From: an uncultured Blautia sp.
GTDB taxonomy: Bacteria > Bacillota > Clostridia > Lachnospirales > Lachnospiraceae
DNA length: 64,000 bases
Assembly: GCA_946622645.1 (NCBI GenBank)
Contig: CAMOQF010000002.1
Location: 190-64,189 of the forward strand
Direction: 5' to 3'
Both the position numbers and the translations under genes were made by a program. The notes beneath the pieces are model-generated. The model saw only the letters and a program-made list of their open reading frames with translations. It was not told the DNA's origin and did not search any database. Positions 32,902 through 60,990 of this stretch are shown here, piece by piece. Numbering within the stretch: position 1 is the stretch's first letter; each line of letters begins with the position of its first letter.

Positions 32902-32995
32902 TCACGAAGGATCACGAAAGATCGCGAAGACTCACGAAGTTTCACGAATTTCCAGGATCACTCACGATTTTTCCACGAAGATTCACGAGAAAAAA
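32902..32995 (+). repeat. 10-bp-phased array of TCACGAA-like motifs upstream of the sigma factor gene
   Basis: TCACGAA at 32902, 32912, 32932, 32942; TCGCGAA 32922; TCACGAT 32962; CCACGAA 32973; TCACGAG 32983. Confidence 0.9.
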
Positions 32996-33017
32996 CAGGA
33001 AAAGTTTCTGACAGTTC

Positions 33018-33046
33018 CATACAAAATAAAACGTCTCCTGTATAAT
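33018..33046 (+). promoter_or_regulatory. Putative sigma-A promoter with perfect -10 and weak -35
   Basis: TATAAT at 33041-33046; the hexamer 17 bp upstream is CATACA (poor -35). Confidence 0.5.
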
Positions 33047-33148
33047 GTGGTGCAGGGCTCAGAAGACCGGATCATATGTCCCGCACATAGGCCGCGGTTC
33101 TTCCTGCCCGGACAACAAAGGTTGTCTTTCATCGGGGAGGTACAGGAG

Positions 33149-33751
33149 ATGAGAACAGATCGTCTGCCGGAGCCGCTCTCCAGGCAGCAGGAAGAGGGAC
33201 TGCTGTTCCTGATGCGGAAGAAGGGGAGTCGGGCAGCCCGGGAAAAACTGATCATCCATAATCTTCGCCTGGTCTATGCCATAGCCTGGGAATACGCCGG
33301 GATCCTTGAACTGGAAGACCTGGTTTCCTGCGGCGTCATCGGCCTGATCAAAGCGGTGGATGCGTACGATGGTTCCCGGAAGGCAGGGCTCGGAAGCTTT
33401 GCCGCGCGCTGCATCCGGAACGAGATCATCTCGGAGCTTCGCAGGATGAAAAGAAACGAGAGAGAAACGCTGGAGGCGATCACGCCGGAGCAGGAGATGA
33501 CGCTCTGGTCTCTGCACAGACATGAGCTGGATCCCCAGAGCATGATCGAAAGATCCGAAGAAAGAGAGGCGCTGTACAAAGCGCTGAAACATCTGGGGAG
33601 AGAGGACCGGCAGCTGCTGAAAAAGCGTTATCTTTCCGCTCAGAAGTGTTCTCAGCAGAAACTGGCGGAACAGACCGGACTTCATCAGTCCAGCATCGCC
33701 CGTCGGGAGATGCGTATTCTCGAAACGCTTCGCAGGCAGCTGCCTTCCTGA
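33149..33751 (+). CDS. Orphan sigma-E/sigma-K-like RNA polymerase sigma factor without pro-sequence
   Basis: LPEPLS, HNLRLVYAIA, EDLVSCGVIGLIKAVD, FAARCIRNEI, SQQKLAEQTGLHQSSIARRE match the sporulation sigE pattern; ATG 33149 follows GGAGG/AGGAG. Confidence 0.85.
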   Translation: MRTDRLPEPLSRQQEEGLLFLMRKKGSRAAREKLIIHNLRLVYAIAWEYAGILELEDLVSCGVIGLIKAVDAYDGSRKAGLGSFAARCIRNEIISELRRMKRNERETLEAITPEQEMTLWSLHRHELDPQSMIERSEEREALYKALKHLGREDRQLLKKRYLSAQKCSQQKLAEQTGLHQSSIARREMRILETLRRQLPS

Positions 33752-33760
33752 AAAAAACCG

Positions 33761-33789
33761 TTTACTTTTACACGACAGAGTGATATTAT
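33761..33789 (+). promoter_or_regulatory. Putative sigma-A promoter of paaK
   Basis: TTTACT, 17 bp, TATTAT with extended -10 TG. Confidence 0.45.
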
Positions 33790-33889
33790 GGTAAAATAAA
33801 CCTGGCCGGAAGTACTTTCCGGTCATAACGTCTCCCCGACATTCAAGCGTGGCATCAGGACAATCTGGAGAAAGAGAGGAAGAAGCAAA

Positions 33890-35197
33890 ATGGGCAATTA
33901 TTATCAACCGGAAATCGAGACCGCTTCCCGGGAACAGATACGGGCATGGCAGAGCGAAAGGCTCTCCCAACAGATCCGTAACGTGTGGGACAACGTACCC
34001 ATGTACCGTAAAAGAATGGAGGAAGCCGGGCTGACTCCGGACGATATCAAAACCGTGGACGACCTGTCCAGACTGCCGTTTATCACAAAGGATGACCTTC
34101 GGGACGAATATCCCTACGGCCTTCTGGCAAGACCTCTGGCGGACTGTGTCCGTATTCAGTCTACCAGCGGAACGACAGGACGGCGCGTGGTCGCCTTCTA
34201 CACCCAGCATGATGTGGATCTCTGGGAAGAATGCTGCGCAAGAGCCATTGTGGCTGCAGGCGGGACAAAAGAGGACGTGGTACAGGTGTGTTACGGTTAC
34301 GGCCTGTTTACAGGCGGTCCCGGACTGCACGGCGGCTCCCATAAGGTGGGCAGCCTGACGCTTCCTATGTCCTCCGGCAACACGGAGCGGCAGATCCAGT
34401 TCATGACAGACCTGGGCACCACCATTCTTTGCTGTACGCCGTCCTATGCGGCTTATCTGGCAGAGAGCATCCACGAAAGAGGCGTGCGCGACCAGATCAG
34501 GCTGAAGGCAGGCATCTTCGGCGCCGAAGCCTGGACGGAGGAGATGCGCCATGACATCGAAGACAAGCTTGGGCTCAAAGCCTATGACATCTACGGACTG
34601 ACCGAGATCTCCGGCCCCGGCGTTTCCTTTGAGTGCGAAGAACAGAAGGGAATGCACGTGAACGAAGACCACTTCATAGCGGAAGTCATCAATCCCCTGA
34701 CCGGCGAAGTGCTCCCGGACGGTGAAAAAGGCGAGCTCGTATTCACCAGCATCACCAAGGAAGCCTTCCCCCTGATCAGATACCGCACCCGCGATATCTG
34801 CATCCTGTCCCACGAAAAATGTTCCTGCGGCAGGACTCATGTCCGCATGACCAAACCGCTCGGACGCAGCGACGACATGCTGATCGTCAAGGGCGTGAAC
34901 GTGTTCCCGTCCCAGATCGAGACCGTCCTGATCAACAAGGGCTATCCGGCCAACTACCAGATCATCGTGGACCGCGTCAACAACAGCGACACCATCGAGG
35001 TGCAGGTGGAGATGACTCCGGAGATGTTCTCCGACAGCCTGAGCGCCGTTTCCTCGAAGGAGAAAGAGCTGGTGGACGCTCTGAAAGCGATGCTGGGCAT
35101 CTACGCCAAGGTGAAGCTCGTCAACCCGAAGACCATCACCAGGAGCGAGGGAAAAGCCGTCCGCGTCATCGACAAACGAAACCTGTACAAGGGCTGA
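33890..35197 (+). CDS. paaK: Phenylacetate-CoA ligase family protein
   Basis: LPFITKDDLRD, IQSTSGTTG, YGYGLFTGG, DIYGLTE, RYRTRD, GRSDDMLIVKGVNVFPSQIE. Confidence 0.9.
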   Translation: MGNYYQPEIETASREQIRAWQSERLSQQIRNVWDNVPMYRKRMEEAGLTPDDIKTVDDLSRLPFITKDDLRDEYPYGLLARPLADCVRIQSTSGTTGRRVVAFYTQHDVDLWEECCARAIVAAGGTKEDVVQVCYGYGLFTGGPGLHGGSHKVGSLTLPMSSGNTERQIQFMTDLGTTILCCTPSYAAYLAESIHERGVRDQIRLKAGIFGAEAWTEEMRHDIEDKLGLKAYDIYGLTEISGPGVSFECEEQKGMHVNEDHFIAEVINPLTGEVLPDGEKGELVFTSITKEAFPLIRYRTRDICILSHEKCSCGRTHVRMTKPLGRSDDMLIVKGVNVFPSQIETVLINKGYPANYQIIVDRVNNSDTIEVQVEMTPEMFSDSLSAVSSKEKELVDALKAMLGIYAKVKLVNPKTITRSEGKAVRVIDKRNLYKG

Positions 35198-35215
35198 CTG
35201 TAAAGGAGAGAAAAA

Positions 35216-35644
35216 ATGACTGTAAAGCAGATTTCCGTATTTTTGGAGAACAAGCCTGGAAAGCTGGCGGATTTTACGGATGTTCTTTCCGCCAACAAGA
35301 TCGATATGCGTGCCCTGTCCCTGGCGGAGGCCGCCGACTTCGGCATCGCCCGGATCCTCGTGGACGACGTTTACAACGCTTCCACGGTCCTGAAGGATGC
35401 CGGCTATATCTTTTCCATCACCAAGGTGCTGGCTGTGGAAATGCCCGATGAGCCGGGCGCTCTTTCCGGGATCATCCGTATCCTCGGCGACAACGGGATC
35501 AACCTGGAGTATATGTATGCTTTCACGGCCCCCAAAAAGAATTCGGCCTACATGATCCTTCGCGTGGCGGACAATGAAGCTGCCATCGAAGCTCTCGGCA
35601 AACACGGGATCCGTCCGGTGTGCCACGACGACCTGATCGACTGA
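35216..35644 (+). CDS. ACT domain-containing protein
   Basis: KQISVFLENKPGKL, DEPGALS, INLEYMYAF; the usual partner of paaK. Confidence 0.9.
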   Translation: MTVKQISVFLENKPGKLADFTDVLSANKIDMRALSLAEAADFGIARILVDDVYNASTVLKDAGYIFSITKVLAVEMPDEPGALSGIIRILGDNGINLEYMYAFTAPKKNSAYMILRVADNEAAIEALGKHGIRPVCHDDLID

Positions 35645-35674
35645 CGGATCAGAACTCAATACAGAAGTGATTTC

Positions 35675-35710
35675 GGAGCCATGGACGCTTTGCCGCCATG
35701 GCTCCTTAAC
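35675..35710 (+). terminator. Hairpin, probable terminator of paaK-ACT
   Basis: GGAGCCATGG/CCATGGCTCC 10-bp stem with a short T-rich tail. Confidence 0.5.
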
Positions 35711-35741
35711 ATTTTCGCGGCGGGTTCCGCCCCCGTTTTCA

Positions 35742-35769
35742 TTGACACTACCGGGCAGAGTGATATAAT
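35742..35769 (+). promoter_or_regulatory. Sigma-A promoter of trkA-trkH
   Basis: TTGACA, 16 bp, TATAAT with TG extension. Confidence 0.75.
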
Positions 35770-35820
35770 AACTATATCTGCATAGATATGTATTTAATCA
35801 TCTTATATACGAGGTGTATC

Positions 35821-37182
35821 ATGAGAGTAATGATCGTCGGGTGCGGCAAAGTGGGCAGCACCATCGCGGAACAGCTGCAGGAAGAAGAAAATATCGACCT
35901 TACGCTGATCGATATAAAAGAAGAAAAGCTGCAGGAACTGGGAGATGAAGTGGACGCTCTTGCCATCACGGGCAACGGAGCCAGTATCAACACGCTGCAG
36001 GAGGCCGGCATCAAGGACACCGACGTACTGATCGCCGTGACCGGTTCGGACGAACTGAACCTGCTGTGCTGCCTGATCGCCCAGAAAGCCAGCACCACCC
36101 ATACCATCGCCAGAGTACGGAATCCCATTTACAGCAAGGAGATCCCCTTCTTCAAAGAGAGACTGGGCGTTTCCGTGTTCATCAATCCGGAATACGCTGC
36201 AGCCATGGAGATATCGCGTATCCTGCGGTTTCCCTCTGCCATGAAGATCGATACCTTTGCAAGAGGAAGGGTGGAGCTCATCAAATTCAAGGTGGAGCCG
36301 GAGTTCGGCCTCAACGGGCTTTCTCTCTCCAGGATCTCTGAAAAATACCACTATGACATGCTGTTCTGCGCGGTGGAGAACGGTTCCTCCATCACCATCC
36401 CGAACGGCGATACCGTGATCCATGACGGCGATCTTGTTTCCATCGTCACCACGCCGAGGATCGCTGCCGAATTCTTCAAGAGGATCGGGCTCAAGACCAC
36501 ACAGGTGCGGGACGCCATGCTGATCGGCGGCGGGACGATCTCGTACTATCTGGCCAGAATGCTTCTGGATATGAAGATCGGCGTCAAGATCATCGAGAAA
36601 GACAAGGCACGCTGTGAGACGCTGTGCGAGCTTCTTCCCAAGGCTACCATCATCTGGGGCGACGGAACAGACAGAGCCCTCCTGATGGAAGAGGGGCTTC
36701 GGACAGCCGAGGCCGTTGTCTGTCTGACCGACATGGATGAGGAGAATATCTTCCTGTCTCTCTCCGCAAGAAAAGTTTCGCAGGCCAAGCTGGTCGCGAA
36801 GGTCAACCGCCTTACCTACAACGATGTCATCGATGACCTGGATCTGGACAGCGTCGTCTATCCCAAATATATCACGGCAGATTATATCCTGCAGTATGTA
36901 CGTGCCACCCAGAACAGCATCGGCAGCAATGTGGAGACGCTCTATCACATTCTGGACAACCGGGCGGAAGCACTGGAATTCCGTATCCGTGAAAAATCCG
37001 CGGTCGTGGGCGTGCCGCTGGCCCAGCTGAAACTGAAAAAGGATCTGCTGGTAGCCTGTATCAACCGCAAAGGAGAGATCCGTATTCCTCGCGGCCAGGA
37101 TACCATCCAGATCCAGGATACGGTGATCATCGTTACCACCGACCGGGGGCTCAGGGATATCACGGACATTCTGGAAAGGTAG
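35821..37182 (+). CDS. trkA: Trk potassium uptake NAD-binding subunit TrkA
   Basis: Two RCK Rossmann motifs (IVGCGKVG; LIGGGTIS); start placed at ATG 35821. Confidence 0.95.
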   Translation: MRVMIVGCGKVGSTIAEQLQEEENIDLTLIDIKEEKLQELGDEVDALAITGNGASINTLQEAGIKDTDVLIAVTGSDELNLLCCLIAQKASTTHTIARVRNPIYSKEIPFFKERLGVSVFINPEYAAAMEISRILRFPSAMKIDTFARGRVELIKFKVEPEFGLNGLSLSRISEKYHYDMLFCAVENGSSITIPNGDTVIHDGDLVSIVTTPRIAAEFFKRIGLKTTQVRDAMLIGGGTISYYLARMLLDMKIGVKIIEKDKARCETLCELLPKATIIWGDGTDRALLMEEGLRTAEAVVCLTDMDEENIFLSLSARKVSQAKLVAKVNRLTYNDVIDDLDLDSVVYPKYITADYILQYVRATQNSIGSNVETLYHILDNRAEALEFRIREKSAVVGVPLAQLKLKKDLLVACINRKGEIRIPRGQDTIQIQDTVIIVTTDRGLRDITDILER

Positions 37183-37191
37183 GCCCTGCAG

Positions 37192-38631
37192 ATGAATTAT
37201 TCTATCATTATTTATATCGTAGGGATGATCCTGAACCTGGAAGCGGTATTGATGGTCCTTCCGGGCGTGACCGCCATCATCTATGGAGAAAAAGCAGGGT
37301 TCGCGTTCCTGATCACCATAGCCATCTGTCTTGCGATCGGGATCCCGGTCTCTGTCAAAATATCCAGAAAGCAGGTATTCTATGCGCGGGAAGGCTTTGT
37401 GGCCGTGGCGCTGAGCTGGATCACGCTTTCCATCATAGGCGCGGTGCCGTTTGTGCTGACCGGCAGCATTCCCAACCCGATCGACGCGCTGTTTGAGACC
37501 GTATCCGGTTTTACGACCACCGGAGCCAGCATCCTGACAGACGTGGAGGTCCTTCCGCACAGCGTCCTGATCTGGCGGAGCTTTACGCACTGGATCGGAG
37601 GCATGGGCGTGCTGGTGTTCGTGCTGGCCATCCTGCCGCTGACCGGCGGTTATCACATGGCGCTTATGAAGGCGGAGAGTCCGGGCCCTTCGGTCAGCCG
37701 GATGCTGCCGACGGTGCAGTCTACCGCCAAGGTTCTGTATGCGATCTACATCGGACTCACCGTCACCCAGATCCTGCTGATGCTGATCACGGGGATGCCG
37801 CTGTTTGACGCTTTATGCATCTCTTTCGGAACCGCAGGTACCGGCGGTTTCGGCGTTTTAAACGCAAGCTGCGGGAGCTATACCACGATCCAGCAGATCA
37901 TTATCACGGTCTTCATGATCCTGTTCGGCATCAATTTCAATGTCTATTTCCTGGCATTGATGAAGCAGTTCGGACAGGCCGTCAGGGTGGAGGAGCTTCG
38001 TTATTATCTGGGCATCATCGGAGCGGCCATTCTGGCGATCACCATCAATACGGTCCATCTGTTCAGCAATGTGGGTGAAGCGATCCAGCAGGTATCGTTC
38101 CAGGTGGGTTCCATCATCACCACGACGGGATATTCGACCACGGACTTTGATCAATGGCCCGTCTTTTCCAAGACGATCCTGGTGATGCTGATGTTCATCG
38201 GCGCATGCGCCGGCAGTACCGGCGGCGGCATCAAAGTGTCCCGTATCATGATCCTGATCAAATCCGTCGGCAAGGAGATGATGCTGTTCCTGCATCCGAA
38301 CGCCATTAAAAAGATCAAGATCGACCAGAAGCCGGTGGCACACGAGGTGGTCCGTTCCACCAATATCTTTATCATTGTCTATGTGGTGATCTTTGCTTTT
38401 TCCACGCTGATCATCAGTATCGACAATTTCAGCTTTACCACCAATTTTACGGCGGTCGCGGCGACTTTGAACAATATCGGCCCCGGCCTCGAGATGGTCG
38501 GACCTACCGGGAACTATTCTCTGTTCTCCGGGTTTTCCAAGCTGATCCTGACGTTCGATATGCTGGCCGGGAGACTGGAGATCTTCCCGCTGATGATGCT
38601 GTTCTACTACAAGACCTGGACAAAAGTGTGA
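37192..38631 (+). CDS. trkH: Trk potassium uptake membrane subunit TrkH
   Basis: FETVSGFTTTG, HWIGGMG, TAGTGGF, GACAGSTGGGIK, LNNIGPG, GRLEI. Confidence 0.96.
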   Translation: MNYSIIIYIVGMILNLEAVLMVLPGVTAIIYGEKAGFAFLITIAICLAIGIPVSVKISRKQVFYAREGFVAVALSWITLSIIGAVPFVLTGSIPNPIDALFETVSGFTTTGASILTDVEVLPHSVLIWRSFTHWIGGMGVLVFVLAILPLTGGYHMALMKAESPGPSVSRMLPTVQSTAKVLYAIYIGLTVTQILLMLITGMPLFDALCISFGTAGTGGFGVLNASCGSYTTIQQIIITVFMILFGINFNVYFLALMKQFGQAVRVEELRYYLGIIGAAILAITINTVHLFSNVGEAIQQVSFQVGSIITTTGYSTTDFDQWPVFSKTILVMLMFIGACAGSTGGGIKVSRIMILIKSVGKEMMLFLHPNAIKKIKIDQKPVAHEVVRSTNIFIIVYVVIFAFSTLIISIDNFSFTTNFTAVAATLNNIGPGLEMVGPTGNYSLFSGFSKLILTFDMLAGRLEIFPLMMLFYYKTWTKV

Positions 38632-38713
38632 CCGTGGGTGCTGCGGCGGTTTATCCGGATTTCCTGCGTGGACCGCTGTTTTGAACGCCATGATCAATAT
38701 AAATGTACATGAA

Positions 38714-38745
38714 ACGGGGAAGAGCTATGCTCTCCCTGTTTTTTT
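38714..38745 (+). terminator. Rho-independent terminator after trkH
   Basis: GGGGAAGAGC-TAT-GCTCTCCCTG followed by T7. Confidence 0.7.
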
Positions 38746-38939
38746 GCTCTGCCTTCTGGTCAGGCTTTGTCTGCGGGCTCTTCTGATCAAATATCTGTTG
38801 ACGAAATGCACGAAAAACCTTAAAATAACAAGTGAAAGATTGTGAATGTTGCAAGCAATCGCAGCTGTTCTGAAGGATCACGACAGCTGCAGACGATCAT
38901 GGATGCTTTTAAAGACAAAGAGAGGAGGGGATTGATGGG

Positions 38940-40880
38940 ATGAGATCCAGAAAGCGGCGTCTGTCTGCTGTGACCGGCCTTCTGCTGGCAGCTGTTGTCA
39001 GTCTGTCCGGGCCGCTGCAGATCACAGCCGCAGAAACAAACGCGCAGAGCATCGATCTGGAAGAATTCTGGAAGGAGCGCACGGAAGGACAGGAGGGAGA
39101 GAACACTCCGACGCCTGCCCCGCAGACTCCGGACGACAAACAGACAACGCCGGCGCCGCAGACCCCGGATGACACGCAGCCGACGCCGGCGCCGCAGACT
39201 CCGGACGATCCGCAGCCGACGCCGATCCCCGGCGATACCGGCACCGACGATCATGTGATCTCGACGGAACCGCAGGTCACGTACGATGATCTGGAGCGGA
39301 TGAACAACGGCCAGGAGATCGTTCTGTTTTCGGATGAAGGCTATCTGATTTTTCTGTTTGGAAAATACTATGACAAGCAGGTCCATGACCAGGAAGAAGC
39401 GATCGCCTCCCTCCAATGCATGGCCGGTCTGCTCGGACTGTCCAAGGGTTCGGAGTTTTACAGTGTCTTCGGCATGCAGGATCCGCTGGGCTACACCTAT
39501 TATATCTACCAGCAGCGGTACGGGGACATCACTCTCCAGAACGCCGTCCTCAAGGTGATCGTAGACCCGGAAGGCTACCCCTGCGGCCTGGTCTCTTCTT
39601 TCACGCCGAATATCGGCATCGCGCCGGATGATGAACCGCTGGTCACGGCAGATGAAGCGCTGGAGATCGTAAAGAAGCGCTACCAGGGCACGGCCATCAC
39701 CTTTTATCCGGAAGCCACCCGCCAGACATCGGTGACTTTCCACAATGTTGCCTATCATGCCTGGGCGGTTTTCAGCAGCCATCCCGCCGAGACAAGGCCG
39801 ACAGAAGGTCCTGCATATCTGGAACATCTGGTTTCATATGACGGATTGTATCTCTACAGCATGGCCGTCCGGTCTCCGGAGGAGATGGTCCTGGGAGACA
39901 ATATCCCCGGAGAGCTTGCCGCGGCCTGGTTCGACGGAAAAGAAGCCGGCACCTACACGGGGGAAGTCACTCTCTGCGACGGGACCAAAGAAACCATCAC
40001 AGTTCCGGTTGTCTGGGATCCGGAACAGAATACCTACATCCTGGCGGATCCCGAAAGAAAGATCCTGGTGGCTGATCACAAGACCTTCCGGGACAGGCTG
40101 GAGCTGAAAACCATCACCTCTCCCGACAACACCGGCTGGCCGGAGCATTACCTGAAAACCTACAACACGTACATCAAAGTCTATGACTTTTTCGACAGTC
40201 ACAACTTCCATTCCGTGGATGGCTTTGGAGTCCCCATCCTGATCCTGTATGATTTTGTGGATGACATGGATCTTCCGTACGACAACGCCTGCTATCTGGG
40301 CAGAGCGGACGGGTGGGCCTGCTTTGGAGCAAGCGCCATCAACGATTATGGTGAAGCGCTCGATGTCATCGGCCACGAGTTCACACACGGCATTACGGAA
40401 TGGGCTATGGGAGGCCAGCTCTACGAAAATGAATCAGGCGCTCTGAACGAGGCTCTGAGCGATATCCTGGGAAATCTCTGCGAGATGATCTCGGGCGAGA
40501 CCGACGATACGGAATGGCTGATCGGAGAGAAGAGCGGCAGAAAATTACGGAGCATGAGCTTTCCGTGGAAGTATAAAAATCCCGGCATGATCGGCGATGA
40601 GTTTTATATCCCGGTCCAGGAGAGACCTTCCTACTATGATGACTACGGCGGGGTGCACACCAACAGTTCCCTGGTCAATCTGATCGCCTGGAACCTGTGT
40701 GCCCGCGGCATGTCGCTGGAGGATGCCTTTACGCTCTGGGTGGAAACGATCCACCTGTTAAGCCCGACCTCCGGTTTCCGTGAGGTCCACGCCGCTCTGG
40801 CAGCCGCCTCCGAGATCCTGGGACTGGACATCACGGTGGAGGGACAGATCCACATGATCTGCCAGCAGATGGGTTTCTGA
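38940..40880 (+). CDS. Secreted M4 (thermolysin-like) zinc metallopeptidase
   Basis: Signal peptide; DVIGHEFTHG (HExxH), ESGALNEALSD, GGVHTNS; FTP/PepSY-like pro-region. Confidence 0.9.
   Translation: MRSRKRRLSAVTGLLLAAVVSLSGPLQITAAETNAQSIDLEEFWKERTEGQEGENTPTPAPQTPDDKQTTPAPQTPDDTQPTPAPQTPDDPQPTPIPGDTGTDDHVISTEPQVTYDDLERMNNGQEIVLFSDEGYLIFLFGKYYDKQVHDQEEAIASLQCMAGLLGLSKGSEFYSVFGMQDPLGYTYYIYQQRYGDITLQNAVLKVIVDPEGYPCGLVSSFTPNIGIAPDDEPLVTADEALEIVKKRYQGTAITFYPEATRQTSVTFHNVAYHAWAVFSSHPAETRPTEGPAYLEHLVSYDGLYLYSMAVRSPEEMVLGDNIPGELAAAWFDGKEAGTYTGEVTLCDGTKETITVPVVWDPEQNTYILADPERKILVADHKTFRDRLELKTITSPDNTGWPEHYLKTYNTYIKVYDFFDSHNFHSVDGFGVPILILYDFVDDMDLPYDNACYLGRADGWACFGASAINDYGEALDVIGHEFTHGITEWAMGGQLYENESGALNEALSDILGNLCEMISGETDDTEWLIGEKSGRKLRSMSFPWKYKNPGMIGDEFYIPVQERPSYYDDYGGVHTNSSLVNLIAWNLCARGMSLEDAFTLWVETIHLLSPTSGFREVHAALAAASEILGLDITVEGQIHMICQQMGF
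39108..39224 (+). repeat. 36-bp tandem repeat (about 3.3 copies) encoding PTPAPQTPDDxQ
   Basis: Units start at 39108, 39144, 39180 and (partial) 39216. Confidence 0.9.
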
Positions 40881-40916
40881 CCCGGCCGCCGGCCTGACTC
40901 GTTTTCAATAATGCAA

Positions 40917-40975: not shown

Positions 40976-41010
40976 GGCACTGGAAGTGATACAAAGAAAG
41001 GAGACACAGT

Positions 41011-51085: not shown

Positions 51086-51096
51086 CGGAAAAGCCC

Positions 51097-53273: not shown

Positions 53274-53487
53274 AGAAGCTGAAGAAAAGTCCCTTGAACA
53301 GGCATTCCACGAACTGGAAGAGATCACCGCGCGGCTGGAAGACCGCGGGACCTCCCTGGAAGACAGCTTTGCCTTGTATCAGAAGGGGGTCGCGCTGGTG
53401 CGTCTGTGCACGGAAAAACTGGATACTGTCGAGAAAAAAATACTGCAGCTGAACGAGGATGGTACGACCAGTGAATTTTCAAGATGA
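53263..53487 (+). CDS. xseB: Exodeoxyribonuclease VII small subunit
   Basis: LEEITARLE, SLEDSFALYQKGV; follows xseA. Confidence 0.93.
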   Translation: MENKEAEEKSLEQAFHELEEITARLEDRGTSLEDSFALYQKGVALVRLCTEKLDTVEKKILQLNEDGTTSEFSR

Positions 53488-54358
53488 ACTAAACAGCAGA
53501 ACCCGCGAAGCAGAAGATATTCTGCTTCTGTTTCTCCCCCGGGAAGAAGGTTATCGAAGCCGTCTGGCGGAGGCCTGTGCCTACAGCCTGACAGCAGGCG
53601 GAAAACGGATCCGCATGCTTCTGATGCAGGAGACATACCGCATTTTCGGCGGAAATGAGGATGTGATCCGCCCGTTTATGGCGGGCATGGAGATGATCCA
53701 CACCCATTCGCTCATCCACGATGACCTGCCGGCACTGGATAATGACGATTACCGCCGGGGGCGTCTGACCACGCACAAAGTCTATGGGGAAGCCATGGGC
53801 GTGCTGTCCGGCGACGCCTTGCTGAACCTGGCTTACGAGACCATGCTGTCCGGCTTTGCCGGGACCGCTTTTCCGGAGAGAGCCGTCCGCGCGATGCAGG
53901 TCATTGCGGAAAAGACCGGCATCCGGGGCATGCTGGGAGGACAGAGTACGGATGTGGAAAATGACGGGAAACCCGTGGACCTTTCGCTTCTCGACTATAT
54001 TTACGAAAACAAGACCGCGGCCCTTCTGGAAGCCCCGCTGATGGCAGGCGCCATCCTGGCCGGAGCGGATGAAGATACGGTCAGGAGCCTGGAAAAGACC
54101 GGCAGCTGCCTGGGAGCAGCCTTCCAGATCAGGGACGATATCCTGGACGTCACCTCCACCACCGAGGTGCTGGGGAAGCCGGTCCACAGCGATGAAAAAA
54201 ACCGGAAGACCACGTACGCGACGCTTTTGGGGACGGAAGCGGCAGCTCAGAAAGTCCGGGAGCTGACAGAGAAGGCCGTAAGCCTGCTGGAAGGACTGTC
54301 CGGAGACACTGCCTTCCTGACCGCCTTTGTCCGAAGCATGGCATCAAGAGAAAAATGA
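53471..54358 (+). CDS. ispA: Polyprenyl (geranyl/farnesyl) diphosphate synthase
   Basis: GGKRIR, SLIHDDLPALDNDDYRRG, GMLGGQ, FQIRDDILD; GTG start assumed. Confidence 0.94.
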   Translation: MNFQDELNSRTREAEDILLLFLPREEGYRSRLAEACAYSLTAGGKRIRMLLMQETYRIFGGNEDVIRPFMAGMEMIHTHSLIHDDLPALDNDDYRRGRLTTHKVYGEAMGVLSGDALLNLAYETMLSGFAGTAFPERAVRAMQVIAEKTGIRGMLGGQSTDVENDGKPVDLSLLDYIYENKTAALLEAPLMAGAILAGADEDTVRSLEKTGSCLGAAFQIRDDILDVTSTTEVLGKPVHSDEKNRKTTYATLLGTEAAAQKVRELTEKAVSLLEGLSGDTAFLTAFVRSMASREK

Positions 54359-54416
54359 TCCCGGAGGAAACAGATCTTCTGCCGGCATCATCGAACAGTA
54401 CAAGAGGAGAGGACGA

Positions 54417-56279: not shown

Positions 56280-57091
56280 AAAAAAGACTGGATCTTCTGC
56301 TTGTGGAAAAAGGCTTTTTTACCTCGCGTGAAAAAGCCAGAACCACCATCATGGCCGGCAATGTCTATGTCAAAGGCCAGAAGGAGGACAAACCGGGCAG
56401 CCTTTTTCCCGAAGACGTATCGATCGAGGTGCGGGGCGGCACGCTTCCCTATGTGAGCCGCGGCGGCCTGAAGCTTGCAAGAGCCATGGAGGTCTTCCCC
56501 ATCGCCCTGCAGGATCGGATCTGCATGGATATCGGGGCTTCTACGGGCGGCTTTACCGACTGCATGCTCCAGAACGGAGCTGCGAAGGTCTATGCCGTGG
56601 ATGTGGGATACGGCCAGCTGGACTGGGGCCTCCGGAACGACCCGCGGGTCGTCTGTATGGAAAAGACCAACATCCGCTATGTAAAGCCGGAGGATATCCC
56701 GGACAGAATATCCTTCGCTTCGGTGGATGTTTCGTTCATATCACTCACGAAAGTGCTCGGACCTGCCAGAGAACTGCTGACGGACGACGGTGAGATCGTG
56801 TGTCTTATCAAACCGCAGTTTGAAGCGGGCCGGGAAAAGGTTGGCAAAAAGGGCGTGGTGCGGGATCCGCAGGTTCACGAGGAAGTGATCGACGCGGTCA
56901 TCGCCTTCGCGGAAAGCATCGGCTTTTTTGCGTACGGCCTCACCTGGTCCCCGATCAAAGGACCGGAAGGAAACATCGAATATCTCCTGCACCTCAGAAG
57001 ACAGGACGACGGGGAACGGCAGGAGATCAGAGTCCACGATACGGTGGAGAGATCCCACAGACTTCTGGATCAGGGAAACAGACAATCATGA
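56276..57091 (+). CDS. tlyA: TlyA family rRNA methyltransferase
   Basis: S4 domain, YVSRGGLKL, DIGASTGGFT, DVSFIS, LIKPQFE. Confidence 0.95.
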   Translation: MKKRLDLLLVEKGFFTSREKARTTIMAGNVYVKGQKEDKPGSLFPEDVSIEVRGGTLPYVSRGGLKLARAMEVFPIALQDRICMDIGASTGGFTDCMLQNGAAKVYAVDVGYGQLDWGLRNDPRVVCMEKTNIRYVKPEDIPDRISFASVDVSFISLTKVLGPARELLTDDGEIVCLIKPQFEAGREKVGKKGVVRDPQVHEEVIDAVIAFAESIGFFAYGLTWSPIKGPEGNIEYLLHLRRQDDGERQEIRVHDTVERSHRLLDQGNRQS

Positions 57092-57978
57092 AATCTTTTT
57101 ACATCGTACCCAACAGGGACAAAGATAAAGACCTTGAAGTGACCCGCCAGGTCACGGATTATCTGGCCAGGAACGGATGCAGGTCCGTTGTCTGCCAGCC
57201 GCAGCGGGAAAAAGCCGGAAGGCGTCACTATACCGACCCGGACCAGGTCCCGGACGGGACCGACTGTGTGCTTGTGCTCGGCGGAGACGGTACCCTTCTG
57301 CAGGCCGCACGGGATCTGGTGGACAAAAAGCTTCCGCTCCTCGGCATCAATCTGGGCAGGCTCGGCTTTCTGGCGGAGGTGGAAAAAAGCAGTCTCTTTC
57401 CCTCTCTGGACATGGTGATCCGGGATGAATATACCATCGAAGAACGGATGATGGCGCGCGGCACCGTCAGCTGTAAAGGCAGGGTCGTGGGACAGGATAC
57501 GGCCCTGAACGACATCGTCATCGCCCGGGAAGGCCATCTGCGTGTGGTCAGTTTTATCAGCTATGTGAACGGAGAATTCCTGAATTCCTGTTCTGCGGAC
57601 GGGATGATCATTTCCACGCCGACGGGCTCCACCGGCTACAACCTTTCGGCTGGAGGCCCGCTGGTATCGCCGCAGGCCTCCATGTTCATCATGACGCCGG
57701 TCGCGCCCCACACGATCAGCACACGGAGCCTTGTCTTTCCCGAGGAGGATGTGATCACGGTGGAAGTCGGCGCAGGACACATGTACGAGAGCGAAAAGGC
57801 GTTTGCCTGTTTTGACGGCGACACGGTCTTCCCCATGGAGACCGGAGACACTATCACCATCTGCCGGGCCGAGACGTCCGTGCGGATCCTGAAATTGAAA
57901 AAACTCAGCTTTGTCGAGGTGCTGCGGCAGAAAATGAACAGCACCCAGGAGGTACAGCGTGAAACCCCAACGTCATAA
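57088..57978 (+). CDS. nadK: NAD kinase
   Basis: LGGDGT, GINLGRLGFL, LND, TPTGSTGYNLSAGGP. Confidence 0.96.
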   Translation: MKSFYIVPNRDKDKDLEVTRQVTDYLARNGCRSVVCQPQREKAGRRHYTDPDQVPDGTDCVLVLGGDGTLLQAARDLVDKKLPLLGINLGRLGFLAEVEKSSLFPSLDMVIRDEYTIEERMMARGTVSCKGRVVGQDTALNDIVIAREGHLRVVSFISYVNGEFLNSCSADGMIISTPTGSTGYNLSAGGPLVSPQASMFIMTPVAPHTISTRSLVFPEEDVITVEVGAGHMYESEKAFACFDGDTVFPMETGDTITICRAETSVRILKLKKLSFVEVLRQKMNSTQEVQRETPTS

Positions 57979-58411
57979 AAAGATTCTGGAACTGATCAGG
58001 ACAGAAGCGATCGAGACACAGGAGGAGCTTGCCAACCGTCTGAACGAGGCAGGCTTCCACGTCACGCAGGCCACGGTCTCACGGGATATCCGCGCCCTGA
58101 AGCTTACCAAGATGACCCGGAAGGACGGCCGTTCTTACTATGCCGTCCTGGAGGAGAACAATCCGGTGACGGGAGACAAATACACCCGCGTGATCCGCGA
58201 GGCGCTCGTCTCCATGGACGCGGCCGAAAACCTGGTGGTCATCAAGACCGTCTCCGGCATGGCCATGGCGGTGGCGGCCTCTCTGGACTCCATGAAATGG
58301 GAGGAGCTTCTGGGATGCATTGCGGGGGACGACACCATCATGTGCGCTGCCCGTACGGCGGAAGGCGCCCGCACAGTGATCGATAAGCTGGATGCCCTCC
58401 TGCACGCATAA
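57959..58411 (+). CDS. argR: Arginine repressor
   Basis: TQEEL, TQATVSRDI, GCIAGDDT; GTG start. Confidence 0.96.
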   Translation: MKPQRHKKILELIRTEAIETQEELANRLNEAGFHVTQATVSRDIRALKLTKMTRKDGRSYYAVLEENNPVTGDKYTRVIREALVSMDAAENLVVIKTVSGMAMAVAASLDSMKWEELLGCIAGDDTIMCAARTAEGARTVIDKLDALLHA

Positions 58412-58424
58412 TTGGGAGAATAAA

Positions 58425-60101
58425 ATGCTGGTAAATCTGCACGTAAAAAACCTTGCGCTGATCGAAGAGGCGGAGGTGAACTTCGGCCCCGGCCTCAACA
58501 TCCTGACGGGGGAGACCGGCGCGGGCAAATCCATACTTCTGGGCTCCATGCAGCTGATCCTGGGCGGAAAGATCCAAAAGAACATGGTTCGGACAAACGC
58601 CCCGTACGCGCTGGTGGAGCTCCTTTTTGAAACGGAAGACGAACAGACGCTCCGGAATCTGGCAGAGCTTTCTGTCTTTCCCGAAGACGGCCAGATCCTG
58701 CTGTCCCGTCGCATCACCGACGGACGCAGCGTGAGCCGCATCAACGGAGAGACCTGTACCATCAGTCAGATGAAGGCGGCGGCTGCCTGCCTGCTGGATA
58801 TCCACGGACAGCATGAACATCAGTCTCTTCTGTACCGGGACAAGCAGCTGGAGATCCTGGACGCTTTCGCGTCTGACAAGACACGCCCCCTGTTGGAAAA
58901 GGTCAGGACCGCCTTCGCTGCCGTGAAGCAGTGTGAGAAAAATCTGCAGGAGCTGGATATCGATGAAGAACAGCGTTCCCGCGAGATCTCTTTCCTGGAG
59001 TACGAGATTCATGAGATCGAAAAAGCGGCTCTGGTCCCCGGCGAGGACGAAGAGCTGGAAAAACGGTACAAAAAGCTTTCCAACAGCCGCCGCATGATGG
59101 AGACCTTGTCCTCTGTCCACGCGCTTACAGGCTCCGACAGGGGGGCGGGAGAACAGACCGGACAGGCGGTACAGGAGCTTGGACATATTCTGCAGTACGA
59201 TGATGAACTGCAGCCGCTGAGCGACCTTCTGATGCAGGCGGACAGCCTTCTGTCGGACTTCGCGCGGGAGCTTTCTTCCTACATGGACGATCTTGTCTTC
59301 GACGAGGAGGTCTTCTACGAGACCGAAAAACGTCTGGATCTGATCAATGATCTGAAAGCCCGCTTTGGAAAGACCATCGAAGAGATCCTGGAGGGAAGGG
59401 ACCGCAGGTCGGAAAGGCTCTCGGCCCTGCAGGACCATGCCTCCCGGGTGGAAAAGGCCAGACGTAAGCTTGCGGAAGCGGAGGCTTCCTACGCGGAGGC
59501 GGCCGGGCTTCTCTCCGAAGAGCGGCAGAAGGCATCGCGGGAACTGATCCTGCAGGTCGTCGAATCGCTGCAGGACCTGAACTTCCTGGACGTACGTTTT
59601 GACATCCGCTTTGACAAAAAAGCGCCTGCCTCCAACGGAACGGATGAGATCGAATATCTGATATCCGTCAATCCCGGCGAGGAGATCCGTCCTCTGGGAC
59701 AGATCGTTTCGGGCGGAGAGCTTTCCCGGATCATGCTGGCGCTGAAGGCCATCCTGGCCTCCCGGGATCAGATCGGGACTCTGATCTTCGACGAGATAGA
59801 CGCCGGCATCAGCGGTCGTACGGCGCAGAAGGTATCGGTCAAGCTTTCTCAGATCGCACAGACCCGGCAGGTGCTCTGCATCACCCATCTGCCGCAGATC
59901 GCGGCGATGGCGGACCGGCACTTTGAGATCGAAAAACACGGGGACGAGGAAAACGGGACTGCGACGGAGGTCCATCTTCTGACAGAAGAAGACACCATCC
60001 GCGAGCTTGCGCGCCTTCTGGGGACCGACGATATCACAGACGTGGCGATCCGGAACGCGGCCGAAATGCGCAGGTCCGCCCTGGAACAAAAAGGGCGGTA
60101 G
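58425..60101 (+). CDS. recN: DNA repair protein RecN
   Basis: LTGETGAGKS, IHGQHEHQ, SGGELSRIMLA, FDEIDAG, ITHLPQIAA. Confidence 0.98.
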   Translation: MLVNLHVKNLALIEEAEVNFGPGLNILTGETGAGKSILLGSMQLILGGKIQKNMVRTNAPYALVELLFETEDEQTLRNLAELSVFPEDGQILLSRRITDGRSVSRINGETCTISQMKAAAACLLDIHGQHEHQSLLYRDKQLEILDAFASDKTRPLLEKVRTAFAAVKQCEKNLQELDIDEEQRSREISFLEYEIHEIEKAALVPGEDEELEKRYKKLSNSRRMMETLSSVHALTGSDRGAGEQTGQAVQELGHILQYDDELQPLSDLLMQADSLLSDFARELSSYMDDLVFDEEVFYETEKRLDLINDLKARFGKTIEEILEGRDRRSERLSALQDHASRVEKARRKLAEAEASYAEAAGLLSEERQKASRELILQVVESLQDLNFLDVRFDIRFDKKAPASNGTDEIEYLISVNPGEEIRPLGQIVSGGELSRIMLALKAILASRDQIGTLIFDEIDAGISGRTAQKVSVKLSQIAQTRQVLCITHLPQIAAMADRHFEIEKHGDEENGTATEVHLLTEEDTIRELARLLGTDDITDVAIRNAAEMRRSALEQKGR

Positions 60102-60185
60102 AGCGGCTTTCCGGACTGTCACGAATCCCTTGTACTGCGCGCATTTCGTAAGAAAACACACCGGTGGATTTCACGAAAATTCACG

Positions 60186-60218
60186 AGAAAAAAAGAGGCT
60201 TCCGGGCCTCTTTTTTCT
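60186..60218. terminator. Bidirectional rho-independent terminator after recN
   Basis: AGAAAAAAAGAGGC-TTCCGG-GCCTCTTTTTTCT. Confidence 0.75.
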
Positions 60219-60351
60219 TGCATTCTGTCATGAACGGTGCTAACAATGGATGCAGGGAGCGGCTTCTTTGGAAGGGAAAGACGCACGCTTCTTACGAGGC
60301 CTCGTATCGACAAAATCAACTGGTTCACGTATGACAGGAGGGGAGTTTCAT

Positions 60352-60990
60352 ATGAATAAGATCAATGTCGCTGTCGTCTCCGGACGGGAGCTGAAACCTG
60401 ATGACCTGCTGCTCCGGATGATCCGGGAGGACGGCTCGCTCTACTATGTGGGCACCGTTTCCAATGAGGATGAAGTGAAAAACCTGATGGAGCTCGATCC
60501 GCCCGACATGCTTCTGTTTTCTTCCATCGTACCGAAACTCTGGCGGCGCGACGGACGGCTGTTTTCCAGCGCGCAGAATCTGACCGGGACCCGCTACAGC
60601 ATCCCGGGGAGCGCGCTTCCGCTCCGCGAAGAAAACCTGGAGCTGATCGTCAGCAACATCCTGCACGAGCTGGGGGTGCCCACCCACATCAGCGGTTTCG
60701 GTTTTATCCGCGACGCCGTGATCCTGGCCGTCTATGACCAGGGGCAGCTGGGAAAGATCACGAAGGTCATGTATCCCACCATCGCAAAGAAGAACATGAC
60801 GACGCCCAGCAAGGTGGAACGGGCCATCCGCCATGCCATCGATCTGGCGTGGGAGAGAGGGAGCCTCAAGTATATCGACGAACTCTTCGGAAGCGATCTG
60901 CGGGACAAACGCATCAAACCTACCAATTCGGAATTCATCGCTTTGATCGCGGATAAGATCCGGATGGACTGGAAAAACAGGAAATATTAA
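60352..60990 (+). CDS. spo0A: Spo0A homolog with intact DNA-binding domain and degenerate, truncated receiver
   Basis: C-terminal LHELGVPTHISG, ITKVMYPTIAK, TTPSKVERAIRHAI and KPTNSEFIALIADK are Spo0A_C signatures; located at the canonical position after recN; 212 aa. Confidence 0.9.
   Translation: MNKINVAVVSGRELKPDDLLLRMIREDGSLYYVGTVSNEDEVKNLMELDPPDMLLFSSIVPKLWRRDGRLFSSAQNLTGTRYSIPGSALPLREENLELIVSNILHELGVPTHISGFGFIRDAVILAVYDQGQLGKITKVMYPTIAKKNMTTPSKVERAIRHAIDLAWERGSLKYIDELFGSDLRDKRIKPTNSEFIALIADKIRMDWKNRKY

What the first reader, a model, noticed from the sequence alone, without database searches (positions are those of the whole stretch)
32902..60990. Candidate repurposed Spo0A to sigma-E regulatory circuit with its own variant operator
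Seen: the window's two sporulation-derived regulators are both atypical. Spo0A (60352..60990) lacks the phosphoacceptor, and the sigE-like factor (33149..33751) lacks a pro-sequence and its processing partner. Their upstream regions share a 22-bp element: CACGAAGATTCACGAGAAAAAA (32974-32995) and CACGAAAATTCACGAGAAAAAA (60172-60193), identical at 21/22 positions. Each lies about 45-50 bp upstream of a putative -10. Known: in Bacillus, Spo0A binds TGNCGAA (0A box), activates the sigma-A promoter of spoIIGA-sigE and autoregulates spo0A. TCACGAA differs from the 0A box at one position. Inference: the Spo0A-to-sigE link and spo0A autoregulation may have survived loss of the sporulation machinery, giving a phosphorylation-independent, cleavage-independent cascade with a shifted operator and a new, unknown output.
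Basis: partly seen in the sequence, partly recalled or inferred. Interest (0 to 1): 0.85.

Follow-up and report, generated by a model that had tools for sequence, protein, structure and literature searches.

The report
Stripped-down Spo0A–sigma-E circuit relic
An uncultured rumen relative of Blautia keeps the first two regulators of the spore-forming pathway, each without its usual activation step, and both genes still carry rows of Spo0A-type binding sites, so the old link between them probably survives for an unknown purpose.

Summary
The 22-mer occurs twice, 21 of 22 bases identical, with 0 matches expected by chance. It is the promoter-proximal end of arrays of 7-bp TCACGAA boxes spaced 10 bp apart. 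There are eight boxes upstream of the sigma gene and three upstream of the spo0A-like gene.

Synteny shows what the two genes are. The 212-aa protein sits in the spo0A slot (recN, spoIVB lost, spo0A, glgA, recA). It has a canonical Spo0A DNA-binding domain but only half a receiver domain, with no acid pocket and no phosphoacceptor. The 200-aa sigma sits where Blautia schinkii has spoIIGA-sigE, between aroD and paaK. It lacks spoIIGA and the pro-sequence.

The box arrays correspond in position to the 0A-box sites of the spoIIG and spo0A promoters. Relatives keep two perfect TTCGACA boxes beside the sigma gene's -35. Box sequence differs between species but matches between the two promoters within a genome. 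Both genes are under purifying selection.

Not shown: binding, whether regulation is positive or negative, genome-wide loss of sporulation genes, and a real shift in specificity. I judge it a new variant of a known circuit, of moderate to high interest.

The parts
32902..32989 (+). Array of direct 7-bp boxes at a 10-bp period, upstream of the sigE-derived gene. Boxes: TCACGAA x4, TCGCGAA, TCACGAT, CCACGAA, TCACGAG. One slot, at 32952, has decayed.
   Evidence: assembled identically in independent metagenomes
32974..32995 (+). Shared 22-mer, copy 1: the proximal box pair plus an A-tract. It corresponds in position to TGTCGAAacaTAACGAGaaa of the B. schinkii spoIIG promoter.
33005..33023 (+). TTTCTGACA g TTCCATACA. 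Probable decayed remnants of the two reverse-orientation canonical 0A boxes (TTCGACA x2) that relatives carry at this position. CATACA now serves as a weak -35.
   Evidence: comparison and alignment; inference
33041..33046 (+). -10-like hexamer TATAAT of the sigma gene promoter (putative).
   Evidence: conserved in L009; not called by the consensus scan because the -35 is weak
33149..33751 (+). 200-aa sigma factor. It is the positional orthologue of sigE, without a pro-sequence and without spoIIGA.
   Evidence: omega 0.14
60119..60125 (+). Distal TCACGAA box upstream of the spo0A-like gene.
   Evidence: kept as TTACGAA in L010
60171..60193 (+). Proximal box pair TCACGAA aat TCACGAG plus an A-tract; contains the shared 22-mer, copy 2 (60172-60193). 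It corresponds in position to AGTCGAAagaTATCGAAcgaaaaag of a full-length spo0A promoter.
60189..60216 (+). Conserved 12-bp hairpin with A-run and T-run arms. It is a likely terminator of recN, lying between the boxes and the -35.
   Evidence: all five species; 2 pairs with compensatory change
60218..60246 (+). Putative sigma-A promoter of the spo0A-like gene: TTGCAT, 17 nt, TAACAA, with TG at 60237-60238. It is 97% identical in L010. CTTGC and TGnTAAnnA are invariant in five species.
   Evidence: not called by the consensus scan
60352..60990 (+). 212-aa Spo0A derivative. Residues 4-56 form a half receiver with no DD pocket and no phosphoacceptor Asp. Residues 59-91 are a disordered linker. Residues 92-208 are a canonical Spo0A_C DNA-binding domain.
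   Evidence: omega 0.03-0.19

Best explanation
This is a pared-down remnant of the top of the sporulation cascade in an uncultured ruminant-gut relative of Blautia (Lachnospiraceae).

The spo0A orthologue has lost the phospho-accepting half of its receiver domain but keeps an intact Spo0A DNA-binding domain. The sigE orthologue has lost its pro-sequence and its processing protease gene, spoIIGA.

The TCACGAA direct-repeat arrays descend from the 0A-box clusters of the spo0A and spoIIG promoters.

Most likely mechanism (inferred): the receiver-less Spo0A binds these boxes head-to-tail along one face of the DNA without needing phosphorylation. Many weak boxes (CGAA core kept, G2 lost) would give cooperative, concentration-dependent occupancy. 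Binding would feed back on its own sigma-A promoter and drive the sigma gene. The sigma product is active as made and directs an unknown regulon.

Shown: the identity and orthology of both genes, the loss of the activation modules, the positional correspondence and conservation of the box sites, and purifying selection.

Inferred: binding, activation rather than repression, and constitutive activity.
For: **Orthology**
- Full-length-Spo0A relatives have recN-spoIVB-spo0A-glgA-recA. The window and four related species have recN-[212-aa gene]-glgA-recA.
- B. schinkii has aroD-spoIIGA-sigE-...-paaK-ACT, with SigE scoring 389.7 bits, above the 339 cutoff. The window and three relatives have aroD-[sigma]-paaK-ACT.

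**DNA-binding domain**
- PF08769 scores 124.8 bits. The match to 1LQ1 and 1FC3 has E 1e-36 over residues 92-208. The recognition helix reads S-K-VERAIRHAI.
- The isolated Spo0A DNA-binding domain binds its targets without phosphorylation (PMC3485338). The sad67 allele is constitutively active (PMC4689505).

**Sites**
- The B. schinkii spoIIG promoter has TAGCGAA/TGTCGAA/TAACGAG at 10-11 bp spacing, followed by TTGACA-21 nt-TATAAT.
- Receiver-less relatives have 3 forward boxes plus 2 perfect TTCGACA boxes 10 bp apart next to the -35 of the sigma gene.
- A full-length spo0A promoter has AGTCGAAagaTATCGAAcgaaaaag at the corresponding place.
- Chains of 3 or more CGA[AG] at 10-11 bp spacing occur only at these promoters in all fetched relatives' loci.

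**Co-variation**
- Each genome uses its own box variant at both promoters. The window has TCACGAA at both. L007 and L028, from the same sample, share GTCGAAAAACCTCG.
- The two copies within the window are 21/22 identical. By my own hand comparison, each is about 13/22 identical to its counterpart in a relative.
- Between the window and the strain with a 99%-identical protein, non-box upstream DNA is 61% identical and the boxes are 86% identical. All three box differences are C to T at box position 2. One of the three protein differences is A158S in the recognition helix.

**Selection and expression**
- Omega is 0.03-0.19 for spo0A-like and 0.14 for the sigma gene.
- Both genes appear in rumen metatranscriptome assemblies.
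Against: - There are no binding or expression data.
- The boxes lack G2, one of three base-specifically contacted positions. A single change there lowers affinity about 10-fold in C. difficile (PMC3485338). The reading-head residues are unchanged, so the affinity of each box should be low.
- In this species the promoter-proximal canonical boxes at the sigma gene have lost their CG core. The nearest intact box is centred about 67 bp upstream of the inferred start site. Contact with sigma-A region 4, as at the classical spoIIG promoter, is not possible from there.
- The sigma protein evolves very fast: syntenic orthologues are about 40% identical, and one copy (L028) looks frameshifted. The downstream half of the circuit may be decaying in some lineages.
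- A metatranscriptome contig runs from aroD through the array into the sigma gene. The gene may therefore also be read through from upstream.
- The link between L007 and L028 as one organism rests only on a shared sample.
Confidence: 0.6

Rival explanations
1. The arrays are non-functional relics. They would be decaying former 0A boxes whose 10-bp unit was amplified by replication slippage, and the two regulators would no longer be connected.
For: The boxes have lost G2. The proximal canonical boxes at the sigma promoter have decayed. Tandem Repeats Finder calls the sigma-side array a 10-bp tandem repeat, as slippage would produce. The sigma protein diverges quickly.
Against: Slippage cannot explain 21/22 identity with a site 27 kb away. 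Between strains the boxes are 86% identical while neighbouring non-box DNA is 61% identical. Arrays persist in at least five diverged species at both promoters. Both genes are under purifying selection.
Confidence: 0.15
2. A different DNA-binding protein, for example an OmpR/PhoB-type response regulator that reads 10-11-bp direct repeats, recognises the TCACGAA boxes. The likeness to 0A boxes would then be coincidental or inherited without function.
For: TCACGAA is not a canonical 0A box. Direct repeats at a helical period are typical of many response regulators (own knowledge). The reading head of the Spo0A derivative has not visibly changed to match the new box.
Against: The sites lie where accepted Spo0A target sites lie at the two classical Spo0A-regulated promoters. 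Relatives carry perfect TGTCGAA boxes at the sigma promoter. No candidate regulator is encoded nearby. The only recognition-helix change between close strains coincides with a concerted change at one box position.
Confidence: 0.12
3. The repeats act mainly as intrinsic DNA structure. Phased A-tracts would curve the DNA or act as an UP element and boost weak sigma-A promoters without a dedicated protein. On the spo0A side they would also form part of the recN terminator.
For: In relatives the unit is CTCGAAAAA(G/C) repeated every 10 bp, which gives phased A5 tracts. The 22-mer ends in A6-A7. At spo0A the A-run pairs with the T-run of a conserved hairpin.
Against: In the window's eight-box array most spacers lack A-tracts (GGA, AGA, GAC, GTT). 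The invariant part is CACGA, not the A-run. Across species the invariant columns are the two CG dinucleotides 10 bp apart.
Confidence: 0.08

Closest known systems
Canonical Spo0A~P activation of the spoIIG (spoIIGA-sigE) promoter and autoregulation of spo0A in Bacillus and Clostridia
   Same: The two genes are the same by synteny. The DNA-binding domain fold and recognition helix are the same. 0A-type boxes with a CGAA core sit upstream of both genes. Relatives keep two perfect TTCGACA boxes 10 bp apart beside the -35 of the sigma gene, and B. schinkii keeps the long 21-nt spacer.
   Different: There is no phosphoacceptor, no acid pocket and no alpha4-beta5-alpha5 dimerisation face. spoIVB, spoIIGA and the pro-sigma-E sequence are absent. 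In this species the boxes read TCACGAA, so G2 is lost. The upstream site has expanded to eight boxes, the proximal site has decayed, and the spacer is an ordinary 17 nt.
Laboratory phosphorylation-independent forms of Spo0A: the sad67 allele and the isolated C-terminal domain
   Same: The DNA-binding domain is freed from receiver control. The isolated domain binds genuine targets (PMC3485338), and sad67 switches on early sporulation genes without phosphorylation (PMC4689505).
   Different: Here the truncation is natural. It is fixed in at least four species-level lineages and is under purifying selection. A conserved 58-residue half-receiver of unknown role is retained.
Aspartate-less or pseudo-receiver response regulators (e.g. 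ChxR; PMC4395418, PMC12632262)
   Same: It is a response-regulator descendant that lacks the phospho-Asp and presumably acts without a kinase.
   Different: Those proteins keep a complete receiver fold. This one keeps only beta1-alpha1-beta2-alpha2-beta3. I found no Spo0A-type member described in the searchable literature.
Spo0A retained in non-spore-forming Firmicutes (bioRxiv 10.1101/2022.02.25.481979; PMC8340488)
   Same: spo0A is kept after other sporulation genes are lost.
   Different: In the sections I read, those surveys report presence or absence of spo0A and do not mention a receiver-less form or a surviving Spo0A-to-sigE promoter link.

Membership tests
Spo0A (TIGR02875 equivalog) | C-terminal Spo0A_C DNA-binding domain with the recognition helix SRVERAIRHAI | tested here: met
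   PF08769 scores 124.8 bits against a cutoff of 25. 1LQ1 and 1FC3 match with E about 1e-36 over residues 92-208. The helix reads SKVERAIRHAI.
Spo0A (TIGR02875 equivalog) | Receiver domain with D10, D11, D56 (phosphoacceptor) and K108 | tested here: not met
   DD is replaced by SG and D56 by S. The beta4-to-alpha5 region, including the K108 equivalent, is deleted. There is no PF00072 hit. The functional residues are listed in bioRxiv 10.1101/2022.02.07.479450.
Spo0A (TIGR02875 equivalog) | Full-length score above the curated cutoff | tested here: not met
   The score is 160.4 bits against a cutoff of 200. Only model positions 143-260 are matched.
Spo0A (TIGR02875 equivalog) | Orthologous chromosomal position (recN-spoIVB-spo0A) | tested here: met
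   The window has argR-recN-[gene]-glgA-recA. Blautia has argR-recN-spoIVB-spo0A-glgA-recA. spoIVB itself is absent.
Sporulation sigma factor SigE (NF006158 / TIGR02835) | Score above the equivalog cutoff | tested here: not met
   113.8 bits against 339 and 107.1 against 348.6. SigK models score the same, 114.1 bits.
Sporulation sigma factor SigE (NF006158 / TIGR02835) | N-terminal pro-sequence removed by SpoIIGA | tested here: not met
   The protein starts 5 residues before the LPEPL motif. The upstream frame is interrupted by a stop codon in the 85%-identical relative.
Sporulation sigma factor SigE (NF006158 / TIGR02835) | Encoded directly after spoIIGA | tested here: not met
   aroD is the upstream gene. 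No Peptidase_U4 gene was found among the + strand genes scanned in the window.
Sporulation sigma factor SigE (NF006158 / TIGR02835) | Positional orthology to a bona fide sigE | tested here: met
   B. schinkii has aroD-spoIIGA-sigE(389.7 bits)-...-paaK-ACT. The window has aroD-sigma-paaK-ACT.
0A box (Spo0A operator, TGNCGAA) | Seven-base core with G2, C4 and G5, the base-specifically contacted positions (PMC3485338) | tested here: not met
   C4, G5, A6 and A7 are present in 11/11, 11/11, 11/11 and 8/11 boxes. Position 2 is C in 11/11 boxes.
0A box (Spo0A operator, TGNCGAA) | Location at the spo0A and spoIIG promoters, often as tandem boxes one helical turn apart | tested here: met
   The positions correspond to the box clusters of B. 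schinkii spoIIG and of a full-length spo0A promoter. Spacing is 10 bp. That tandem 10-bp geometry matches abrB and the 1LQ1 complex is from my own knowledge.
0A box (Spo0A operator, TGNCGAA) | Bound by Spo0A | not testable with these tools
   This needs EMSA, footprinting or DAP-seq.

The most novel reading that the evidence does not exclude
A natural two-node module, receiver-less Spo0A driving a pro-less sigma-E, works as a kinase-independent and protease-independent switch in a lineage that no longer sporulates. Multi-box cooperative operators replace phosphorylation as the source of threshold behaviour. Operator and reading head co-evolve: box position 2 changes in concert with recognition-helix residue 158 (A, S or G within the clade). 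The fast-evolving sigma factor directs a new, non-sporulation regulon.
Probability: 0.3. Interest if true: 0.8.

Novelty: new variant of a known kind. Interest (0 to 1): 0.62.

Why it matters
Sporulation is lost repeatedly in gut Firmicutes, and it is an open question what the master regulators that remain are doing. This case offers a concrete and testable example. Both regulators have shed their signal-dependent activation steps, phosphorylation for one and proteolysis for the other. Their cis-regulatory link appears to be maintained and even elaborated.

If confirmed, it would show how a developmental cascade can be cut down to a minimal transcriptional module and reused. It would also provide a natural constitutively active Spo0A for studying operator recognition. 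Finally, it warns that counting spo0A or sigE as present in metagenome-assembled genomes does not indicate the ability to sporulate.

Tried and rejected
- **Prophage or mobile element.** I considered this as the context for the sigma gene and rejected it. The whole window is housekeeping chromosome: uvrB, the dnaK operon, pur and aro genes, trkAH, dxs, recN and recA.
- **Pro-sequence in the longer ORF.** The 234-aa ORF starting at GTG 33047 would overlap the -10. The relative L009 has a stop codon in that frame. The ATG at 33149 has a strong, conserved ribosome-binding site. Rejected.
- **Known RNA element.** There are no Rfam matches and no tRNAs in the 64 kb. The fold of the sigma 5' leader is not significant, z -1.1.
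- **Species-representative genome scan with the sigma protein.** It returned no close relative, so the organism is not among the species representatives.
- **Metagenome scan for CACGAANNNTCACGAGAAAAA.** It returned 20 hits, none related to the window. By my rough estimate about 15 would be expected by chance, assuming roughly 500 Gb of sequence. The element is therefore not a widespread dispersed repeat. The species is also absent from that collection, so its regulon could not be mapped.
- **Transcription start sites from raw RNA reads.** No reads were laid on the window in three 2026 runs. Only low-depth metatranscriptome contigs exist.
- **Tracing the run that holds L009 and L010** to recover that strain's sigma-side array.
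- **Consensus promoter and terminator scans.** They call nothing at either promoter. The hairpin was confirmed with RNAalifold instead.
- **PaaK as a synteny probe.** It did lead to L027-L030 and L033.

Full report
**1. The observation**

They are 21/22 identical. No match appeared in 100 dinucleotide-preserving shuffles, even with three mismatches allowed.

They are the promoter-proximal ends of larger arrays. Upstream of the sigma gene there are nine in-phase slots at a 10-bp period, starting at 32902, 12, 22, 32, 42, 52, 62, 73 and 83. Eight hold a TCACGAA-like box. Upstream of the spo0A-like gene there are three boxes, at 60119, 60171 and 60181.

The consensus of the 11 boxes is T-C-A-C-G-A-A, with C2, C4, G5 and A6 invariant. 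Pairs matching YCRCGAR-N3-YCRCGAR occur six times in the window, all at these two places, against 0.1 expected.

The array has the same sequence in contigs assembled from independent sheep, goat and bovine gut samples, so it is not an assembly artefact.

The 22-mers end 46 and 48 bp before the -10-like hexamers TATAAT (33041) and TAACAA (60241, preceded by TG). The -35 elements are poor, and a consensus scan calls no promoter at either site.

**2. The two genes**

The window is ordinary chromosome. It contains uvrB, hrcA-grpE-dnaK-dnaJ, purCBA, aroE-aroD, paaK, trkAH, gltX, pcrA, prfC, asp23-nusB-xseAB-ispA-dxs-tlyA-nadK-argR-recN, glgA and recA. PaaK and Spo0A similarities place the organism close to Blautia, in the Lachnospiraceae. 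The samples that hold it are ruminant gut metagenomes. It is absent from the species-representative genome collection and from the JGI metagenome collection.

*The Spo0A-like protein (212 aa).*
- Residues 92-208 are a canonical Spo0A C-domain. PF08769 scores 124.8 bits and PDB entries 1LQ1 and 1FC3 match at E about 1e-36. The recognition helix reads SKVERAIRHAI.
- The N-terminus aligns with the receiver of full-length Blautia Spo0A, but DD is replaced by SG and the phosphoacceptor Asp by Ser. About 70 residues are missing, covering beta4 to alpha5 and the linker, including the Lys of the pocket.
- AlphaFold models residues 4-56 as beta-alpha-beta-alpha-beta, residues 59-91 as disordered, and the rest as the helical DNA-binding domain.
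- Only five database clusters have this 212-aa form: one near-identical, three at 67-69% identity, and one fragment. All others are full length.
- The half-receiver is conserved within the clade.
- dN/dS is 0.03 against the closest strain and 0.17-0.19 against the distant ones. It is a maintained gene, not a pseudogene.

*Synteny of spo0A.* Relatives with full-length Spo0A have argR-recN-spoIVB-spo0A-glgA-recA. The window and the other receiver-less species have argR-recN-[gene]-glgA-recA. This is the spo0A orthologue, and spoIVB has been deleted.

*The sigma factor (200 aa).*
- It has region 2 and a weak region 4. It hits the SigK and SigE models equally, at about 114 bits, far below their cutoffs.
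- Protein searches find only one close homologue, 85% identical. After that come ordinary 235-240-aa pro-SigE/K proteins at 39%.
- Synteny settles its origin. In Blautia schinkii the aroD-paaK interval holds spoIIGA and a bona fide sigE, which scores 389.7 bits against a cutoff of 339 and has a pro-sequence.
- In the window and in three related contigs the same interval holds a single short sigma gene and no spoIIGA.
- These syntenic sigmas are only about 40% identical to each other and to true SigE. They keep the core-binding motif GLIKAVD, and all lack the canonical pro-sequence.
- The window's protein begins five residues before the LPEPL motif, which lies just after the processing site. 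The upstream frame carries a stop codon in the 85% relative.
- dN/dS against that relative is 0.14. The gene is constrained but evolves fast.

**3. The repeats**

*Sigma promoter side.* The B. schinkii spoIIG promoter has three forward boxes, TAGCGAA, TGTCGAA and TAACGAG, 10-11 bp apart. They are followed by TTGACA-21 nt-TATAAT. From my own knowledge, that long spacer is typical of Spo0A-dependent spoIIG promoters. The proximal pair TGTCGAAacaTAACGAGaaa sits where the window has CCACGAAgatTCACGAGaaa.

In the receiver-less relatives the sigma gene is preceded by three forward boxes, such as GGTCGAAAAA CCTCGAAAAA CCTCGGGAAA. Two perfect canonical 0A boxes in reverse orientation follow (TTCGACAtttTTCGACA). 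The second of these ends 21 nt before TATAAT.

*spo0A promoter side.* A full-length gene has AGTCGAAagaTATCGAAcgaaaaag, then a small hairpin and the promoter. The receiver-less relatives have GCTCGAAaaaGCTCGAAcgaaaaag or AGTCGAAaaaCCTCGGAaaaCGTCGTAcgaaaaag at the same place.

In an alignment of five species the invariant columns are:
- two CG dinucleotides exactly 10 bp apart, with following As;
- the hairpin;
- CTTGC at the -35;
- TGnTAAnnA at the extended -10.

Chains of three or more CGA[AG] at 10-11 bp spacing occur nowhere else in the fetched relatives' loci I scanned or in the window. Shuffles give 0.3 per 64 kb.

The arrays therefore descend from the Spo0A target sites of the two classical Spo0A-controlled promoters.

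**4. Evidence that the sites are still used, and by one factor**

- Each genome has its own box variant, and the variant is the same at both promoters.
  - The window has TCACGAA at both.
  - L007 (spo0A side) and L028 (sigma side) come from the same sample. They share GTCGAAAAACCTCG(G/A)AAAA.
  - The CTCGAAAAA type is seen at spo0A in L001 and L008 and at the sigma gene in L029 and L030.
- The two copies within the window (21/22) are far more alike than either is to its counterpart in a relative (about 13/22 by direct comparison).
- In the strain whose protein is 99% identical, the upstream non-box DNA is only 61% identical but the boxes are 86% identical. The only differences are C to T at box position 2 in all three boxes.
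- One of the three amino-acid differences between these two proteins is A158S, inside the recognition helix. This residue is G in P0002 and A in the seven full-length Spo0A sequences aligned here. It hints at co-evolution of operator and reading head, but it is anecdotal.

**5. Caveats**

- The boxes lack G2. Spo0A makes base-specific contacts with G2, C4 and G5, and single changes cost about 10-fold in affinity (PMC3485338). The residues I recall as the contacting ones (E213, R214, R217 in B. subtilis numbering; own knowledge) are unchanged. A true change of specificity is therefore not demonstrated. Low-affinity boxes used in multiples is the simpler reading.
- In this species the two reverse canonical boxes next to the -35 have lost their CG core (TTTCTGACA, TTCCATACA at 33005-33023), and the spacer is now 17 nt. 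The nearest intact box is centred about 67 bp upstream of the inferred start. Activation, if it occurs, cannot work as at the classical spoIIG promoter.
- A metatranscriptome contig spans aroD, the array and the start of the sigma gene. Read-through is possible.
- Both genes appear in several rumen metatranscriptome assemblies. Raw-read runs gave no reads, so start sites are unknown.
- Loss of sporulation is shown only locally. spoIVB and spoIIGA are deleted, and no spoIIIA operon lies beside asp23-nusB. That spoIIIA normally lies there is from my own knowledge. The rest of the genome could not be examined.

**6. Mechanism proposed**

The receiver-less Spo0A cannot be phosphorylated, and it lacks the face used for phosphorylation-driven dimerisation (residues listed in bioRxiv 10.1101/2022.02.07.479450). 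Isolated Spo0A DNA-binding domains and the sad67 allele act without phosphorylation (PMC3485338, PMC4689505).

I therefore propose a constitutively competent regulator whose activity is set by its concentration. It would bind cooperatively, head-to-tail, to phased weak boxes. It would feed back on its own promoter and control the sigE-derived gene. That gene's product needs no processing. The target genes of the sigma factor are unknown.

My estimate is 0.6 for this explanation, 0.15 for non-functional relics, 0.12 for a different binding protein and 0.08 for purely structural DNA.

**7. Comparison with what is known, and novelty**

Retention of spo0A in non-spore-formers is known. It is found in 32 of 42 asporogenous Clostridia (bioRxiv 10.1101/2022.02.25.481979). 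Aspartate-less receivers are a known class (PMC4395418, PMC12632262).

I found no description of a receiver-truncated Spo0A clade, of a pro-less sigE orthologue without spoIIGA, or of the retained operator link between them.

The protein fails the Spo0A equivalog test on the receiver and on score. The sigma fails the SigE test on score, pro-sequence and spoIIGA. Both are orthologues by position. I rate it a new variant of a known kind, with interest 0.62.

Noticed in passing
window 60293-60312: The leader of the spo0A-like gene has a perfect 14-bp palindrome, TACGAGGCCTCGTA, equivalent to two head-to-head TACGAG boxes. ATCGACA follows it (reverse complement TGTCGAT, 6/7 of a 0A box). Both are fully conserved in the 99% strain. 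Relatives carry a different palindrome, GGAAGCGGCCGCTTC, in their leaders. This could be a downstream operator or an RNA hairpin.
   Followed up: partly
L001 9918-10003, L008 279-369, L007 834-923, window 60253-60354: RNAalifold pairs a CGCTTC-containing leader segment with the GGAGGGG ribosome-binding site of the spo0A-like mRNA, which might mask the Shine-Dalgarno sequence. No compensatory changes support it.
   Followed up: partly
P0074, P0046, P0011 (alignment A3): Three Blautia-like Spo0A proteins keep DD and D56 but have other internal deletions in the receiver domain (219, 223 and 315 aa). They may be independent receiver erosion or misassemblies. All are singleton clusters.
   Followed up: no
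L028 4299-4781 versus L027 9303-9875: The sigma gene in L028 reads as 160 aa, with a frameshifted C-terminus lacking region 4. The otherwise near-identical L027 copy is 190 aa. This is either a sequencing error or pseudogenisation in one population.
   Followed up: no
window 33047-33148; L009 1-106: The leader of the sigma gene is about 95 nt and has exactly the same length in the 85% relative. In the window its in-frame translation ends ...LSFIGEVQE, faintly like the YYIGG motif before the pro-sigma-E cleavage site. This may be a trace of the deleted 5' coding region.
   Followed up: partly
window 15334-15452: A 15-bp tandem repeat (GGTCAGAAAACCGGA, 7.9 copies, 91% matches) lies inside the 5' part of the RNase J gene. 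It would encode a repeated pentapeptide in the N-terminal extension.
   Followed up: no
window 39108-39224: A 36-bp tandem repeat (3.2 copies, Pro/Asp/Thr-rich when translated) lies in the N-terminal part of a thermolysin-type (M4) peptidase gene.
   Followed up: no
window 19886-24695: A large gene pair, DUF5717 (1176 aa) and DUF5716 (420 aa), of unknown function sits between peptidase U32 and purC. The DUF5716 gene and the neighbouring ORF and purC are also seen in the relatives L027, L029 and L030.
   Followed up: no
window 33149-33751 versus 60352-60990, compared with L009 and L010 (same sequencing run): Against contigs from one sequencing run, the sigma gene shows dS 0.60. The spo0A-like gene and the 5' end of paaK show dS 0.23-0.28. 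The sigma locus may be unusually variable, or two strains may be mixed in that run.
   Followed up: no
L032 6773-7021: The relative with full-length Spo0A carries a Coat_F (spore coat) gene between glgA and recA. It is absent at that position in the window and in the receiver-less relatives.
   Followed up: no
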